64,000 bases of DNA. It comes from Escherichia phage vB_EcoM-PM133. The notes under the pieces are model-generated. The model worked only from the letters and a program-made list of their open reading frames with translations. It ran no database searches and was not told where the DNA came from. The DNA lies in the sequence record MZ234052.1; one strand, given 5' to 3'. Positions 44,720-53,543 of the stretch are shown one piece after another; the first letter of the stretch is position 1, and each line of letters opens with the position of its first letter. Position numbers and translations under genes: made by a program.

Positions 44720-45011
44720 ATGAAAACATTTAAAGAATTTACTTCTACTACAACTACCCCGGTTTCTACCATTACCGAAGCTACTCTTACTTCTGAAGTT
44801 ATTAAAGCAAATAAATGACGAGAAGGTAAACCAATGATTAGTCTGGTTGATGGCGAAGAAATCAAAGGTACTGTTTATCTAGGTGATGGGTGGTCTGCTA
44901 AAAAGGATGGTGCTACAATCGTTATCTCTCCTGCTGAAGAAACTGCGTTGTTTAAAGCTAAACACATTTCTGCGGCACATCTCAAGATTATTGCTAAAAA
45001 TCTTTTGTAAT
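44720..45011 (+). pseudogene. ipI-like internal protein gene interrupted by in-frame TGA (codon 33)
   Basis: ATG at 44720 gives MKTFKEFTSTTTTPVSTITE...KANK, then TGA at 44816-44818, then the same frame continues REGKPMISLVDGEEIKGTVYLGDGWSAKKDG... to TAA at 45009-45011. Confidence 0.55.
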
Positions 45012-45029
45012 AAACAATTTCACAAAGTT

Positions 45030-45059
45030 GTTTACATAGGGTTTTAGTTGTGATACTAT
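45030..45059 (+). promoter_or_regulatory. T4-type early promoter
   Basis: -35 TTTACA (45031-45036), 17 nt spacer, -10 TGaTACTAT (45051-45059). Confidence 0.6.
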
Positions 45060-45093
45060 TACCCTATCAAAACAAAACCAAATGGAAATCAAA

Positions 45094-45327
45094 ATGAAAA
45101 CTTACCAAGAATTTATTGCTGAAACTGCTGATGTAAAAGTTGAGTTTATTTACACTGGCAAGAAAGATAAAATGGGTGAAATGCCTCATGGAGTTCTTCG
45201 TGATGCATTAGATAATTTCGGTCAACTCGCCGCAGAAGATTACGGTGATAAAATTGTTGTTACTGGTCCTGCTGCAGTTATTGAAAAATGGGCAGCAGAA
45301 AATAAATCAATTTTTCGTAAAAAATAA
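45094..45327 (+). CDS. internal-protein-like ORF with capsid targeting sequence
   Basis: ATG at 45094 gives MKTYQEFIAE...; early promoter cassette upstream. Confidence 0.6.
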   Translation: MKTYQEFIAETADVKVEFIYTGKKDKMGEMPHGVLRDALDNFGQLAAEDYGDKIVVTGPAAVIEKWAAENKSIFRKK

Positions 45328-45357
45328 GTTTACTTTTAGATAGGGTAGTGATACTAT
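45328..45357 (+). promoter_or_regulatory. T4-type early promoter
   Basis: -35 TTTACT (45329-45334), 17 nt spacer, -10 TACTAT (45352-45357). Confidence 0.55.
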
Positions 45358-45385
45358 TACCCTATCTACTACTGAGGAGAATAAA

Positions 45386-45571
45386 ATGAAACGTTGTGAA
45401 TTAATTCGAAATGTTGCTATTGCAATTTCTGCTTCCGCTTTCAGTTTTTCAATGTTTGTTGGATTTATATGCGGATTATTGACTACGGCAGAAAATGTTT
45501 TTTCACTTGTAGTAGCATTTTTAATTGGTTTAATTGCTATTGTTATGGATAAAATTTCTAAAGGTGAATAA
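45386..45571 (+). CDS. small hydrophobic membrane protein
   Basis: 61-aa ORF with RBS GAGGAG; two predicted transmembrane segments. Confidence 0.5.
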   Translation: MKRCELIRNVAIAISASAFSFSMFVGFICGLLTTAENVFSLVVAFLIGLIAIVMDKISKGE

Positions 45572-45969
45572 TGAACGTTGAATATTATGTATATGCGGAT
45601 TACGAAAATAATCCGTCTAAAGATGAAGATAATCGTTTAGGTGTAGATGCTTTCGATTCCCCTGCGGCGGCATGGCAATGGGTTGAAAGAACCGATATTC
45701 CTTACCGTTATATTGAAGTGGTTGACCACGCAGGAAACAAGTATCCTAAGGAAGCATATGTTGCTTCCGGGAAGGTAAATTTCCTTTTGTTTGCAGGTGA
45801 TAATTATTATCCCCGTGGTGGGTATACCGATTTAATTGCTAAAGCATTCTCTGAAGATGAACTCCGTGACATTATCAAAGAAAATGAAAACAAACCGATG
45901 GATTCTAATCGCTTTGATTGGTGGCAAATCGTAAATGCTAATACTCACACTATTGTTGATGAAGGCTGA
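45571..45969 (+). CDS. hypothetical protein
   Basis: 132-aa ORF; start overlaps the preceding stop. Confidence 0.55.
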   Translation: MNVEYYVYADYENNPSKDEDNRLGVDAFDSPAAAWQWVERTDIPYRYIEVVDHAGNKYPKEAYVASGKVNFLLFAGDNYYPRGGYTDLIAKAFSEDELRDIIKENENKPMDSNRFDWWQIVNANTHTIVDEG

Positions 45970-45971
45970 TA

Positions 45972-46259
45972 ATGATTCTTTATGCGAAAGTATCATCCAT
46001 TGAAAATGGATATAAATATGATCAAGACGCGGCTAAAGCTTTGATTGATGATTATGGCATTTTAACATGTTTTGAAGTTGAAAAGGTTTACATTGACCGT
46101 TCATCTTCTCAAGTTAAATTAGTGAAGGAAGAACGTAAATTTAATACAGTAAATTTTGATTTCTTTATTGAAACAGAAAAAGGTCCTCTTGAATATGATA
46201 TTTTCAAGAATCCTTTGGGTCTTGAATGCATCGTAAATATGTATTATTATAAATGGTAA
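45972..46259 (+). CDS. hypothetical protein
   Basis: 95-aa ORF immediately upstream of the tRNA cluster. Confidence 0.5.
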   Translation: MILYAKVSSIENGYKYDQDAAKALIDDYGILTCFEVEKVYIDRSSSQVKLVKEERKFNTVNFDFFIETEKGPLEYDIFKNPLGLECIVNMYYYKW

Positions 46260-46356
46260 ATATGCTTTAAGAATTATTTGTTATTATTAACTCATATCGC
46301 ACTGATTAATACCCTCTATCATCAAGGGTTCTTGCTTAAGAGCCTTTGTTAATAAT

Positions 46357-51282: not shown

Positions 51283-51719
51283 AAACATTATCAGCTGGTA
51301 TTATCTTTATGACAGAAGATAAAGATTTATTTATGGGACGAGTTACCGGTTCTCGTAAACCTGGAATGATTGCACATCGCTGGGATATTCCAAAGGGGCG
51401 TGTAGAAAGTTCTGATTTGAATGCACTGGAAGCTGCAAAAAGAGAATGCTCAGAAGAGACTGGTTTTATCGATTATAATCCAGACCTTCTAGAAGACTTA
51501 GGTGTATTTAAATATTCTAGTAATAAAGACTTACAGTTATTTTATTATACGATTCCAGTAGAGCATGAGATGTTTAGAAATTGCCATTGCGAGTCTTATT
51601 TTGAAAATAAAGATGGCGTTATGATTCCAGAGATGGATGCTTTTGCTCTTATTCCTCGTACTCAGTGGCAATATGTGATGGGTCCTTCACTTTACCGAAT
51701 AATGAACAGCCTCTTTTAA
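51264..51719 (+). CDS. nudE: Nudix hydrolase NudE
   Basis: 151-aa ORF with Nudix box GRVESSDLNALEAAKRECSEETGF; alternative start at 51279 (ATGA overlap). Confidence 0.8.
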   Translation: MQEIKMKTLSAGIIFMTEDKDLFMGRVTGSRKPGMIAHRWDIPKGRVESSDLNALEAAKRECSEETGFIDYNPDLLEDLGVFKYSSNKDLQLFYYTIPVEHEMFRNCHCESYFENKDGVMIPEMDAFALIPRTQWQYVMGPSLYRIMNSLF

Positions 51720-51732
51720 TTTATAAATACCT
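51712..51732 (+). promoter_or_regulatory. tandem late promoters upstream of lysozyme gene e
   Basis: TATAAATA at 51712-51719 and 51725-51732, followed by RBS TAGGAGG. Confidence 0.6.
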
Positions 51733-51755
51733 TCTATAAATACTTAGGAGGTATT

Positions 51756-52250
51756 ATGAATATATTTGAAATGTTACGTATAGATGAAGGTCTTAGACTT
51801 AAAATCTATAAAGATACAGAAGGCTATTACACTATTGGCATTGGTCATTTGCTTACTAAAAGTCCATCATTAAGTGTTGCTAAATCTGAATTAGATAAAG
51901 CTATTGGGCGTAATTGCAATGGTGTAATTACAAAAGATGAGGCTGAAAAACTCTTTAATCAGGATGTTGATGCTGCTGTTCGTGGAATTTTGAGAAATGC
52001 TAAATTAAAACCAGTTTATGATTCTCTTGATGCTGTTCGTCGCTGTGCATTAATTAATATGGTTTTCCAAATGGGAGAAACTGGCGTAGCTGGATTCACT
52101 AACTCTTTGCGTATGCTTCAACAAAAACGCTGGGATGAAGCAGCAGTTAACTTAGCTAAAAGTAGATGGTATAATCAAACACCTAATCGCGCAAAACGAG
52201 TCATTGCAACGTTTAGAACTGGCACTTGGGACGCGTATAAAAATCTATAA
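51756..52250 (+). CDS. e: T4-type lysozyme (endolysin)
   Basis: 164-aa [42 protein letters not shown]; near-identical to recalled T4 lysozyme. Confidence 0.97.
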
Positions 52251-52254
52251 AGTT

Positions 52255-52284
52255 GTTTACTTTCTCCTAGAATTGTGATAGTAT
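52255..52284 (+). promoter_or_regulatory. T4-type early promoter upstream of denV
   Basis: -35 GTTTAC (52255-52260), 17 nt spacer, -10 TGaTAGTAT (52276-52284). Confidence 0.55.
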
Positions 52285-52309
52285 ATTCACAGTTACTTGG
52301 AGGGATAAA

Positions 52310-52726
52310 ATGACTCGTATTAATTTGACTTTAGTATCTGAACTTGCTGATCAACATTTAATCGCAGAATACCGTGAATTGCCGCGTGTTTTTGGTATAG
52401 TTCGTAAGCATGTGGCAAACGGTAAGCGCGTTAAAGATTTTAAAATATCTTCTAAATTTATTTTAGGTTCTGGTCATGTTACTTTCTTTTACGATAAGTT
52501 AGAATTTTTGCGAAAGCGTCAATTAGACATTATAACGGAATGCTTAAAACGAGGGTTCAGTATAAAAGATACTGAAGTTCCTGACATCAGCGATATTCCA
52601 GTAGAATGGAAAAATGATTATAATCCATGCAAATCAGCTATTAAATTGAGTCAACAACGACTTGATGAAAAAATTTTAATGAAACCACATTGGTATAAGT
52701 ATTACGGTAAAAATATTTACATTTAA
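52310..52726 (+). CDS. denV: endonuclease V, pyrimidine dimer DNA glycosylase
   Basis: 138-aa [32 protein letters not shown]; diverged from recalled T4 endoV at several positions. Confidence 0.9.
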
Positions 52727-52735
52727 AGGAAACAT

Positions 52736-53053
52736 ATGAAAACATATCAAGAATTTATTGCAGAATCTGCCGCAGGACAACGTGTAGAAGGCGGTTATAT
52801 TTGGATTGAACAAGTTGAGCCGCCGAGTCGCACTTCTACAGGTAAATGGAAAATCACTGTTGATGGTCCTGGTGGTAAACGTAGGACTCTTAAAGAAATT
52901 AACGGGTACTATGAAGAAGCTCTTTCAGACGCGGGTACTTATATGATGCAAATTATGATTAAAAACCCAGAAAATCGTTTTGCAGCTAGAGTTTTTCGTC
53001 GTATTGGAAATAAGCTTTACGACGCATATTCTAAAAATTTTCCTAAAGAATAA
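52736..53053 (+). CDS. internal protein with capsid targeting sequence
   Basis: 105-aa ORF starting MKTYQEFIAE; RBS AAAGGAAACATATG. Confidence 0.6.
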   Translation: MKTYQEFIAESAAGQRVEGGYIWIEQVEPPSRTSTGKWKITVDGPGGKRRTLKEINGYYEEALSDAGTYMMQIMIKNPENRFAARVFRRIGNKLYDAYSKNFPKE

Positions 53054-53069
53054 AAATTAAAGGAATCAT

Positions 53070-53543
53070 ATGAAAACATATCAAGAATTTATCACTGAAG
53101 CAGCTATTAATTCTCAAATTATTGCTGAATCTTTTACTGATCTTTTGAAATTTAAAAAAGGTCAAAAAATCACTGCTGTATTGGATGATGGTACAGAAGT
53201 TGAGATGGATGTACAGGGATATAATTATGCAGTAGATGGAAAACTGTATAATAAATCTCATGCTAAATTTGATTCATTTGACGACTTTGTTAATACAGTT
53301 GAAGATGAAAAAACTCGTCGATCCATTGCAACCGGTGATGCTAAGGTTCTTATGGCACATGGTCATGAACGCATTCGCGCTAAACAGAATAAAATGGGCG
53401 AAGATAATTTCGCATTAGTTGGTTATCAATCTGGTAAACAAACTTATGGTTATCAACGTACTGCTACCATGTATAATAAAAATGGTAAAATTGCCTTTGT
53501 AAATAGTAAAGGTTCTATTCAGTACGTTAAATCGTTCAAATAA
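53070..53543 (+). CDS. internal protein with capsid targeting sequence
   Basis: 157-aa ORF starting MKTYQEFITEAA; RBS AAAGGAATCATATG. Confidence 0.6.
   Translation: MKTYQEFITEAAINSQIIAESFTDLLKFKKGQKITAVLDDGTEVEMDVQGYNYAVDGKLYNKSHAKFDSFDDFVNTVEDEKTRRSIATGDAKVLMAHGHERIRAKQNKMGEDNFALVGYQSGKQTYGYQRTATMYNKNGKIAFVNSKGSIQYVKSFK

What the first reader, a model, noticed from the sequence alone, without database searches (positions are those of the whole stretch)
44720..53543. Five dispersed genes sharing a capsid-targeting-sequence-like N-terminus
ORFs at 45094 (MKTYQEFIAE), 52736 (MKTYQEFIAE), 53070 (MKTYQEFITEAA), 47575 (MKSYTQFLNEA) and 44720 (MKTFKEFTSTTTT...E) begin with the short N-terminal peptide that in T4 internal proteins directs packaging into the prohead and is removed by gp21 protease after Glu. 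The bodies downstream are unrelated to each other. This is the signature of injected cargo proteins, a fast-evolving anti-restriction repertoire. At least two loci also have TATAAATA late promoters nearby.
Basis: partly seen in the sequence, partly recalled or inferred. Interest (0 to 1): 0.45.

Follow-up and report, generated by a model that had tools for sequence, protein, structure and literature searches.

The report
T-even phage internal (injected) protein genes
These five genes are the well-known "internal protein" genes of a T4-like phage, small cargo proteins addressed to the capsid by a shared 10-residue tag and injected with the DNA; four already have names (one of them is broken by a stop codon) and one is an unnamed member at a new site.

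Summary
A strict motif, MK[ST][YF]x[EQ]F, hits exactly five times in all six frames of the window, each time at an ORF start, against 0 hits in shuffles. The protein bodies are mutually unrelated.

The window is 100% identical to Escherichia phage vB_EcoM-PM107, a Tequatrovirus. The genes are:
- ipI (44720)
- Ip6 (45094)
- Ip10 (52736)
- Ip4/IpIV (53070)
- an unnamed 157-aa ORF (47575)

The gp21 protease, gp22 scaffold and gp67 are in the same window.

1. The "ORF at 44720" is T4 ipI cut short at codon 33 by a GGA→TGA change. Only 3 of 163 records share this allele.
2. ipI and Ip6 sit between repeated early-promoter/stem-loop (PeSL) cassettes, and ipI is swapped for ip5 in a phage of the same species.
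3. The 47575 ORF is a 555-bp late-promoter cassette bracketed by duplicated rnaC terminator hairpins. It is absent from T2, T4 and T6. It occurs in 511 phage records, and every record examined annotates it "hypothetical".

Overall this is known biology and of low interest.

The parts
44642..44702 (+). PeSL-type repeat 1: early promoter TTTACA-17-TACTAT (with TG) and a stem-loop GATGAGGTA...TACCTCATC between the hexamers, upstream of ipI
   Evidence: family D1/D3; identical in T4, G28 and fFiEco06
44720..45010 (+). ipI (internal protein I, GmrSD inhibitor family) carrying an opal nonsense codon at codon 33 (TGA 44816-44818; GGA in T4 and G28). CTS MKTFKEFTSTTTTPVSTITE|A. The rest of the frame is intact.
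   Evidence: Pfam PF11634 IPI_T4 E=7.5e-54 when read through; exact allele in 3 of 163 records
45012..45072 (+). PeSL-type repeat 2, upstream of Ip6; it is the downstream boundary of the ipI/ip5 swap
45094..45327 (+). Ip6-type internal protein gene, 77 aa; CTS MKTYQEFIAE|T; mature 7.4 kDa, pI 6.5
   Evidence: phrog_8111 'internal virion protein' E=1.2e-52; annotated ip6 in fFiEco06 and T6; 245 records. The conserved start is 45094, not the ATG at 45082 used in the PM107 record.
45310..45370 (+). PeSL-type repeat 3, upstream of trna.4
47498..47533 (+). Copy 1 of a 36-nt direct repeat: the terminator hairpin at the 3' end of rnaC (10-bp stem, 7 GC pairs, T-run)
   Evidence: (D6)
47531..47538 (+). 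T4-type late promoter TATAAATA, 44 nt upstream of the 47575 ATG; conserved in PP01
47575..48048 (+). Unnamed CTS-bearing ORF, 157 aa; N-terminus MKSYTQFLNE|AVLNE|ASS with a duplicated LNEA cleavage motif; mature about 16 kDa, pI 9.5; predicted all-alpha with residues 1-15 disordered
   Evidence: phrog_2280 'unknown function'; no Pfam match
48053..48088 (+). Copy 2 of the 36-nt terminator repeat (94% identical). Together with copy 1 it brackets a 555-bp insertion relative to T4, T2 and T6.
51722..51742 (+). Two TATAAATA late promoters of lysozyme gene e; the nearest perfect late promoters upstream of Ip10/Ip4, with no + strand terminator predicted in between
52736..53053 (+). Ip10-type internal protein gene, 105 aa; CTS MKTYQEFIAE|S; mature 10.8 kDa, pI 9.6
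   Evidence: annotated 'ip10: Ip10 internal head protein' in PP01 and VR7; phrog_3966
53070..53543 (+). Ip4/IpIV-type internal protein gene, 157 aa; CTS MKTYQEFITE|A with a second I-A-E site at residue 20; mature 16.5 kDa, pI 9.1
   Evidence: phrog_3155 'internal virion protein' E=6e-102, Pfam DUF7412 E=5.7e-96; 'ipIV' in PP01 and T2, 'Ip4' in JK1
15108..15746 (-). gene 21 prohead protease, the enzyme that would remove the CTS
   Evidence: Pfam Peptidase_S77 E=1.5e-111
14268..15077 (-). gene 22 scaffolding core protein, the core into which CTS proteins are recruited
   Evidence: Pfam T4_CASP E=5.2e-90
16171..16410 (-). gene 67 prohead core protein
   Evidence: Pfam GP67 E=1.6e-43

Best explanation
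The five ORFs are the internal-protein (ip) gene set of a T4-like phage (vB_EcoM-PM107): ipI, Ip6, an unnamed Ip-like gene, Ip10 and Ip4.

Proposed mechanism:
1. Each protein is made with an N-terminal capsid-targeting sequence of about 10-20 residues. The CTS gives it affinity for the gp22/gp67/gp68 scaffolding core, so it is built into the prohead.
2. The gp21 protease then cuts after the Glu of an (L/I)-x-E motif. This releases a small, mostly basic mature protein that stays in the head with the DNA.
3. The mature protein is ejected into the next host with the DNA. There, by analogy with T4 Ip1-3, it most likely blocks one specific variant of the GmrSD-type (Type IV) restriction enzymes that attack glucosyl-hmC DNA.

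The repertoire is assembled by cassette exchange rather than by sequence drift.
- ipI and Ip6 are separated by repeated early-promoter/stem-loop (PeSL) elements that act as recombination linkers.
- The unnamed gene is a self-contained late-promoter/ORF/terminator cassette inserted at the rnaC terminator.

In this phage ipI is a recent opal-nonsense allele. At most four of the five can therefore deliver a full-length cargo, barring UGA read-through.

Shown here: the motif, the cleavage sites, the presence of the protease and core genes, family membership, the cassette boundaries and the nonsense codon. Inferred: packaging, cleavage, injection and the anti-restriction targets.
For: - Motif: 5 of 5 hits at ORF starts against 0 in shuffles; exact recovery of the known Ips in T4, T2 and T6.
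- Residues 4, 7, 8 and 10 and the (L/I)xE sites are present in all five, matching the mutational data summarised in PMC9026906.
- Selection acts on the peptide, not the DNA. The three MKTYQEFI(A/T)E copies differ by 1-3 synonymous codons and at most one amino-acid change, and the 40 nt upstream are only 11-21/40 identical.
- In the unnamed family the motif survives in homologs at 35-42% identity (MKFKEFLAE|A, MLKFNEFLAE|G, MKSFSSFLNE|G, MINFSDFLNE|G) while the body diverges.
- gp21, gp22 and gp67 are in the window.
- Named families: IPI_T4, phrog_8111 and phrog_3155; the ip6, ip10 and ipIV annotations.
- Mature forms are 7-16.5 kDa with pI 9.0-9.6 (Ip6: 6.5), like T4 IPI-III at 8-20 kDa and pI 9.0-9.7.
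- The genome encodes two glucosyltransferases and dCTPase, so its DNA is the kind GmrSD attacks.
- The ipI to ip5 replacement is bounded exactly by identical PeSLs in a phage of the same species.
- There is a 555-bp indel between duplicated hairpins relative to T4, T2 and T6.
- Literature: PMC3012670, PMC9026906, PMC12373910, PMC2839356, PMC4122927.
Against: - There are no virion proteomics or N-terminal sequences for any of these five products in this phage or, as far as I could find, for the unnamed family.
- A perfect late promoter lies directly upstream of only one of the five.
- ipI is truncated.
- Ip6 is not basic.
- The anti-GmrSD role has been tested only for T4 Ip1-3, whose bodies are unrelated to Ip4, Ip6, Ip10 and the unnamed protein.
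- The structure model of the unnamed protein has no informative structural neighbour.
Confidence: 0.85

Rival explanations
1. The N-terminal similarity only reflects a shared nucleotide context for translation initiation or a duplicated DNA segment. It is not a functional peptide.
For: The 52736 and 53070 starts share an AAAGGAAnCATATG ribosome-binding context, and the repeat finder groups three of the starts as a 60-nt family (D2).
Against: Differences within the 10 codons are mostly synonymous, and upstream identity is near random for the 45094 pairs (11-13 of 40 nt; 21 of 40 for 52736 vs 53070). The peptide motif is retained in homologs whose bodies are only 35-42% identical. The same peptide was shown experimentally to target proteins into T4 heads (PMC9026906).
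Confidence: 0.02
2. The proteins are packaged, but they act mainly as DNA counter-ions or head-assembly factors rather than as anti-defence effectors.
For: Four of the five mature forms are basic, pI 9.0-9.6. The IPs are abundant in T4 (about 360 copies each), their lysines contact packaged DNA (PMC3012670), and IPIII- and IP0 mutants show head-assembly aberrations (PMC9026906).
Against: All three T4 Ips have now been shown to inhibit distinct GmrSD enzymes with strict specificity (PMC12373910). Non-homologous bodies with presence/absence polymorphism fit an arms race better than a generic charge role. Ip6 is not basic.
Confidence: 0.12
3. The unnamed 47575 product is not an internal protein. 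It is a late cytoplasmic protein whose N-terminus resembles a CTS by descent or by chance, and it is not packaged.
For: It lies outside the 'two Ip loci' described in the literature (PMC12373910). Every record examined annotates it 'hypothetical' or 'protein of unknown function'. It has no Pfam family and no structural neighbour.
Against: It matches the strict motif, which gave no false positives in the window or in the fetched T2/T4/T6/PP01/teqsoen/fFiEco06 loci, about 160 kb in all. Aromatic-4, Phe-7, L/I/V-8 and a Glu cleavage site are kept in all divergent family members. It has its own late promoter, which is the right timing for prohead assembly. Residues 1-15 are predicted disordered, as expected of a propeptide. 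Its size and pI are like IPIII and Ip4.
Confidence: 0.2
4. The in-frame TGA in ipI is a sequencing error, or is efficiently read through, so functional IPI* is still delivered.
For: The frame downstream of the TGA is perfectly intact. The stop is followed by C, and UGA-C is known in E. coli as a weak termination context (general knowledge, not tested here).
Against: The allele is present in two different phage species: PM107/PM108, and 101117BS1, which is only 96.4% identical over the 10-kb region. None of the 10 phage tRNAs has a UCA anticodon. Basal read-through would give only a small fraction of the normal ~360 copies per head.
Confidence: 0.15

Closest known systems
T4 internal proteins IPI, IPII, IPIII (Black lab; Mullaney & Black 1996 CTS; Bair/Rifat/Black 2007-08; Silas et al. 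2025)
   Same: Same N-terminal CTS (MKTYQEFIAE, or MKTFKEFTST...ITE for IPI), the same (L/I)xE gp21 site, the same size and charge range, and the same two genomic neighbourhoods (57B-trna.4 and denV/e). The 44720 gene is IPI itself, with a 76-aa mature part 98.7% identical to T4.
   Different: The bodies at 52736 and 53070 are not IPII/IPIII. The ip pair lies on the vs.8 side of denV rather than between denV and e. ipI carries an opal codon.
Polymorphic T-even ip genes Ip4-Ip10 (Repoila, Tetart, Bouet & Krisch 1994, EMBO J 13:4181; as cited in PMC3012670 and PMC12373910)
   Same: Ip6, Ip10 and Ip4/IpIV in the window are 95-100% identical to genes carrying those names in T6, PP01, T2, JK1 and fFiEco06. 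There is the same pattern of unrelated bodies behind a common leader.
   Different: The 47575 family carries no Ip name in any record examined and is absent from T2, T4 and T6. I could not read Repoila 1994, so I cannot exclude that it was mentioned there.
PeSL mobile regulatory cassettes of T4-type phages (Arbiol et al. 2010, PMC2839356; Comeau et al. 2014, PMC4122927)
   Same: Repeated TTTACA-N17-TACTAT early promoters with an embedded stem-loop flank ipI, Ip6, trna.4 and denV. This matches the published PST/T4 PeSL consensus TTTACW-N17-TAYWAT. A clean ipI/ip5 module swap lies between identical PeSLs.
   Different: The 47575 cassette uses a different linker: a duplicated Rho-independent terminator hairpin followed by a late promoter (TATAAATA) rather than an early one.
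Propeptide-targeted ejection proteins of giant phages (phiKZ, SPN3US) and other injected anti-restriction proteins (P1 DarA/DarB)
   Same: Cargo is incorporated into proheads, trimmed by a gp21-like protease after Glu, and ejected into the host (PMC9026906).
   Different: Those are different, much larger proteins. They have no MKTYQEFIAE-type leader and belong to unrelated phage lineages. This comparison rests on the literature only and was not tested here.

Membership tests
T-even internal proteins (CTS-bearing gp21 substrates) | N-terminal capsid-targeting sequence resembling MKTYQEFIAE: aromatic at 4 and Phe at 7 (targeting), L/I at 8 and Glu at 10 (processing) | tested here: met
   Four of the five ORFs fit residues 4, 7, 8 and 10 directly. 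IpI has the long 20-residue variant ending I-T-E, as in T4. Criteria taken from PMC9026906.
T-even internal proteins (CTS-bearing gp21 substrates) | The phage encodes the gp21 prohead protease and the gp22/gp67/gp68 scaffolding core | tested here: met
   Peptidase_S77 E=1.5e-111, T4_CASP E=5.2e-90 and GP67 E=1.6e-43 at window 14268-16410, minus strand
T-even internal proteins (CTS-bearing gp21 substrates) | Sequence homology to a family already named or annotated as an internal protein | tested here: met
   Met for four: IPI_T4 (PF11634), phrog_8111 (Ip6), phrog_3155/DUF7412 (Ip4), and Ip10 by annotation in PP01 and VR7. NOT met for the 47575 ORF: phrog_2280 'unknown', no Pfam, and profile comparison with IPII/IPIII aligns only the leader.
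T-even internal proteins (CTS-bearing gp21 substrates) | Location in one of the two described ip loci (57B-trna.4; denV/e region) | tested here: met
   Met for ipI, Ip6, Ip10 and Ip4. Not met for the 47575 ORF, which lies between rnaC and e.8.
T-even internal proteins (CTS-bearing gp21 substrates) | Intact reading frame giving leader plus mature body | tested here: not met
   Fails for ipI only: TGA at codon 33 (44816-44818). The other four are intact.
T-even internal proteins (CTS-bearing gp21 substrates) | Physically present in the mature head in processed form, and ejected with the DNA | not testable with these tools
   Requires virion mass spectrometry or osmotic-shock release. No proteome covering these products was found.
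T-even internal proteins (CTS-bearing gp21 substrates) | Inhibits a specific host defence (GmrSD-type Type IV restriction enzyme) | not testable with these tools
   Shown only for T4 Ip1-3 (PMC12373910). The phage does encode glucosyl-hmC modification genes, so the target class is plausible.
PeSL (promoter-early stem-loop) cassettes | Repeated intergenic unit of a sigma-70-like early promoter plus stem-loop, flanking variable ORFs, with module replacement between copies | tested here: met
   Three copies at 44642-44702, 45012-45072 and 45310-45370, 64-84% identical to the first copy, plus a shorter one at 52249-52284. TTTACA-17-TACTAT with TG. ipI/ip5 swap bounded by them. Promoter and terminator activity were not tested.

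The most novel reading that the evidence does not exclude
The 157-aa ORF at 47575-48048 defines an unrecognised internal-protein family at a third ip locus. It is carried on a 555-bp 'terminator / late promoter / CTS gene / terminator' cassette inserted at the rnaC terminator. The cassette is absent from T2, T4 and T6, is present in about 500 sequenced T4-like phages, and has diverged homologs in Klebsiella and Yersinia T4-likes. If packaged and injected, it would be a candidate inhibitor of a defence variant (for example a GmrSD subtype) not covered by Ip1-3.
Probability: 0.6. Interest if true: 0.35.

Novelty: already known. Interest (0 to 1): 0.17.

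Why it matters
As a class this is textbook T4 biology, so the finding mainly confirms that the scan can recognise internal-protein genes from sequence alone. Three points have practical value.

1. One widespread CTS-bearing family is annotated 'hypothetical' in every record examined. In PP01 it is even annotated from a wrong start codon that hides the leader. It could simply be re-annotated and added to panels testing Ip proteins against Type IV restriction enzymes.
2. The ipI opal allele predicts that PM107-type phages are sensitive to GmrSD(CT596)-like systems. 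This matters when choosing Tequatroviruses for therapy cocktails.
3. The late-promoter/terminator-flanked cassette extends the PeSL idea of 'regulatory repeats as recombination linkers' to a different kind of linker.

Tried and rejected
- Structure prediction of the 47575 protein gave mean pLDDT 75 and pTM 0.46, all-alpha. Foldseek against the PDB gave nothing below E=1.4, only generic helical hairpins, so no functional lead.
- Deep profile search over 1.84 billion representatives found only 13 family members and no link to a characterised family.
- hhalign of the family against T4 IPII and IPIII aligned only the leader, with probability 12-19%.
- Pfam hit of Ip10 to CsgH (E=0.088, below cut-off) was rejected as noise.
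- Literature: Repoila 1994, Bair 2007 and Rifat 2008 are not held. The search for Ip8-Ip13 returned only unrelated papers. The fHe-Yen9-01 and Yersinia Tequatrovirus papers contain no virion proteome. The 2026 BrxU paper does not discuss Ips.
- Rfam scan of 46200-48400 found only the tRNAs above their gathering thresholds and no family for the rnaC/rnaD region or the hairpins.
- The ORF at 54552 (MKAYQILEG...) resembles only the first four residues and fails the motif. It is the vs.6/GrcA-like glycyl-radical protein, not an Ip.
- A phage-encoded opal suppressor tRNA was considered for the ipI TGA. None of the 10 tRNAs has a UCA anticodon.

Full report
**Identity of the window.** Window 43900-54300 is 100% identical to Escherichia phage vB_EcoM-PM107 (MZ234042.1; Straboviridae, Tequatrovirus). 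More than 1,100 T4-like records match it. On the + strand the gene order is:
- gene 1, 57A, 57B
- ipI (44720), Ip6-like (45094)
- trna.4, trna.3, trna.2
- ten tRNAs (46357-47184), then the rnaD/rnaC region
- a 157-aa ORF (47575)
- e.8 to e.2, nudE, e (51756), denV (52310)
- a 105-aa ORF (52736), a 157-aa ORF (53070), vs.8

This order comes and from comparison with the T4, teqsoen, fFiEco06 and PP01 annotations.

**Check of the observation.**
- The regex MK[ST][YF].[EQ]F, applied to all six frames of the 64-kb window, gives exactly five hits, all at these ORF starts. Thirty shuffles gave none.
- As a positive control I ran the same regex on the fetched loci. It returns exactly IPI, IPII and IPIII in T4; IpIV, Ip7 and Ip5 in T2; Ip6 and Ip5 in T6; and IpIV, Ip10, Ip5 plus the unnamed ORF in PP01. 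There were no false positives.
- After removing the leaders, no pair of the five bodies is related; the best BLASTP E-value is 0.7. The only significant match to T4 is the 44720 product against IPI (98.7% over 75 residues). The bodies at 52736 and 53070 are not IPII or IPIII.

**Is it only nucleotide context?** No.
- The three MKTYQEFI(A/T)E leaders differ from one another by one to three synonymous codons and at most one amino-acid change.
- The 40 nt upstream are only 11-21/40 identical.
- In the family of the unnamed ORF, homologs whose bodies are only 35-42% identical keep the peptide pattern: MKFKEFLAE|A, MLEYSEFLKE|L, MLKFNEFLAE|G, MKSFSSFLNE|G, MINFSDFLNE|G.

Selection therefore acts on the peptide.

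**What the genes are.**
- 44720-45010, read through its stop, matches Pfam IPI_T4 (E=7.5e-54) and phrog_4363 'internal virion protein'.
- 45094 is phrog_8111 'internal virion protein'. It is annotated ip6 in fFiEco06 and T6 and occurs in 245 records.
- 52736 is 100% identical to 'Ip10 internal head protein' of PP01 and occurs in 189 records.
- 53070 is phrog_3155 'internal virion protein' and Pfam DUF7412. It is 100% identical to 'IpIV' of PP01 and 'Ip4' of JK1, and is annotated ipIV in T2. It occurs in 470 records.
- 47575 is phrog_2280 'unknown function' and has no Pfam match. It occurs in 511 phage records. All 40 records sampled evenly down the ranking call it 'hypothetical' or 'protein of unknown function'.
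- In PP01, which otherwise uses T4 ip nomenclature, the 47575 gene is annotated from an upstream TTG. This buries the leader 30 residues inside the product.

**Mechanism and what supports it.** The published model is as follows (PMC9026906, PMC3012670).
- The 10-19-residue IP propeptides are capsid-targeting sequences that give affinity for the scaffolding core.
- In IPIII, residues 4 and 7 matter for targeting and residues 8 and 10 for processing.
- gp21 cuts after Glu in L/I-X-E.

The window fits this model.
- Four of the five ORFs have aromatic-4, Phe-7, L/I-8 and Glu-10. IpI has the long variant ending I-T-E at residue 20, as in T4.
- The 47575 leader contains a tandem duplication of the cleavage motif (FLNE|AVLNE|AS). 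Shorter family members have a single copy.
- The required machinery is in the same window on the minus strand: gp21 (Peptidase_S77, E=1.5e-111), gp22 (T4_CASP), gp68, gp67 and the gp20 portal.
- Predicted mature products are 7.4-16.5 kDa. Four are basic (pI 9.0-9.6), like T4 IPI*-IPIII*.
- The AlphaFold model of the 47575 protein is all-helical, with residues 1-15 below pLDDT 50. This is consistent with a flexible propeptide.

For function, Silas et al. 2025 (PMC12373910) showed that T4 Ip1, Ip2 and Ip3 each inhibit a different GmrSD-type Type IV restriction enzyme, with no cross-protection. They proposed that the accessory proteins of 'the two Ip loci' all target GmrSD variants. PM107 encodes an alpha-glucosyltransferase, a second glucosyltransferase and dCTPase, so its DNA should be the relevant substrate. 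Packaging, cleavage, injection and targets of the proteins in this window are inferred, not shown.

**Regulatory and cassette anatomy.**
- ipI, Ip6 and trna.4 are each preceded by a ~60-nt repeat containing TTTACA-17-TACTAT (with an upstream TG) and a hairpin between the hexamers (44642-44702, 45012-45072, 45310-45370). A shorter copy precedes denV.
- This fits the PeSL elements of Arbiol 2010 and Comeau 2014, including their PST/T4 consensus TTTACW-N17-TAYWAT (PMC2839356, PMC4122927).
- fFiEco06 belongs to the same species as PM107. Alignment with it shows that the slot after 57B holds ip5 there and ipI here. The flanks are essentially identical up to the first codons of the leader on one side and the next PeSL on the other. 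This is a textbook module swap.
- The 47575 gene is organised differently. A perfect T4 late promoter, TATAAATA (47531), lies 44 nt upstream.
- The unit is bracketed by a 36-nt direct repeat (47498-47533 and 48053-48088, 94% identical). The repeat is the GC-rich terminator hairpin at the end of rnaC.
- T4, T2 and T6 have a single hairpin and run directly into the sequence that follows the second copy here. PM107 therefore carries a clean 555-bp insertion. PP01 has the same cassette, including the TATAAATA.
- Ip10 and Ip4 have no perfect late promoter of their own. The nearest are the two promoters of gene e about 1 kb upstream, with no + strand terminator predicted in between, plus a one-mismatch TATAAGTA at 52694.

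**The ipI nonsense allele.**
- The '32-aa ORF' at 44720 ends at TGA 44816-44818.
- Compared with G28 and T4 this is a single G-to-T change (GGA Gly to TGA). Everything downstream stays in frame and is 98.7% identical to T4 IPI at protein level.
- Of 163 phage records with ipI, only PM107, PM108 and 101117BS1 share this exact sequence. All other listed records annotate a single intact CDS where they are annotated.
- 101117BS1 is classified in a different species and is only 96.4% identical over the 10-kb region.
- None of the ten phage tRNAs has an opal-suppressing anticodon.
- The product would be the leader plus 12 residues. A leaderless C-terminal fragment could start at ATG 44834 but would lack the CTS.
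- The allele therefore looks like a recent loss of function. This is plausible because IPI is needed only on hosts carrying the cognate GmrSD (PMC9026906). Low-level UGA read-through cannot be excluded.

**Comparison with what is known, and novelty.** The phenomenon has been in the literature since Repoila et al. 1994 and is restated in recent reviews and in Silas 2025: T-even phages carry a polymorphic set of non-homologous internal proteins that share only a CTS, and these act as injected defence inhibitors. Four of the five genes have established names. The finding as a whole is therefore already known.

The part I could not find described is the 47575 family.
- It is outside the two recognised ip loci and is absent from the three classical T-evens.
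- It is unnamed in every record examined.
- It is mobile on a terminator/late-promoter cassette rather than a PeSL.
- Its family is small: 13 representatives in 1.84 billion proteins.
- It has no detectable relationship to IPII or IPIII beyond the leader and no structural neighbour.

I could not read Repoila 1994 or Comeau 2007, so prior mention cannot be excluded.

**Verdict.** Interest is low (0.17). The most novel reading not excluded is that the 47575 ORF is a new internal-protein family at a third ip locus (probability about 0.6, interest about 0.35 if true).

Noticed in passing
window 44816-44818: ipI carries an in-frame opal codon (GGA to TGA at codon 33) while the rest of the gene is intact. 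The allele is shared only by PM107, PM108 and 101117BS1 among 163 records. It predicts sensitivity to GmrSD(CT596)-type restriction.
   Followed up: yes
L010 34578-34742 (MZ234042.1, outside the window; T4 '61.1' position upstream of primase gene 61): A sixth ORF in the same genome matches the strict CTS regex: MKTYKEFIKEDMVAGDSGGNPENISTGTTSGAVVNKGPEQIPKKKKEESKEKEE (54 aa, I-K-E at residues 8-10, phrog_1823 'unknown function'). It has matches in about 1,400 T4-like records including T4 itself. In distant phages the alignments start after the leader, at residues 8-10. Whether gp61.1 is a tiny packaged peptide is unexplored.
   Followed up: partly
window 47575-47622: The leader of the unnamed ORF contains a tandem duplication of the cleavage motif (LNEA-V-LNEA-S), giving two L-x-E sites at residues 10 and 15. 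Shorter family members (MKTYNEFLMTEAS, MKFKEFLAEAS) have one.
   Followed up: partly
L007 5538-6101 (PP01_137) and window 45082 vs 45094: Start-codon mis-annotations hide the CTS. PP01_137 is annotated from an upstream TTG, 30 codons before the MKSYTQFLNE start. The PM107 record starts Ip6 at ATG 45082 (MEIKMKTYQ...), an ATG that is absent in 101117BS1.
   Followed up: yes
window 52249-52726: denV is itself preceded by a PeSL-like promoter repeat (52249-52284). Its position relative to the ip pair is permuted compared with T4: here e-denV-ip10-ip4-vs.8, in T4 e-ipIII-ipII-denV-vs.8. No denV is annotated in the corresponding regions of PP01 and T2.
   Followed up: partly
window 46357-47184: The tRNA cluster has 10 genes, adding Tyr and Asn relative to T4's 8. 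The 'Met' CAU tRNA corresponds in position to T4's tRNA-Ile. There is no segB homing endonuclease, unlike T4, T6 and PP01.
   Followed up: no
window 54552-54914: The ORF starting MKAYQILEG... superficially resembles the leader for four residues but fails the motif. Its C-terminus is a glycyl-radical domain (vs.6 / autonomous glycyl radical cofactor).
   Followed up: yes
L010-L012 (MZ234042.1 annotation): The deposited PM107 annotation has obvious product-name propagation errors: ten consecutive 'thioredoxin' CDSs at 1-6899, and 'molybdenum ABC transporter' on three small ORFs near modA. Names in this record should not be trusted.
   Followed up: no
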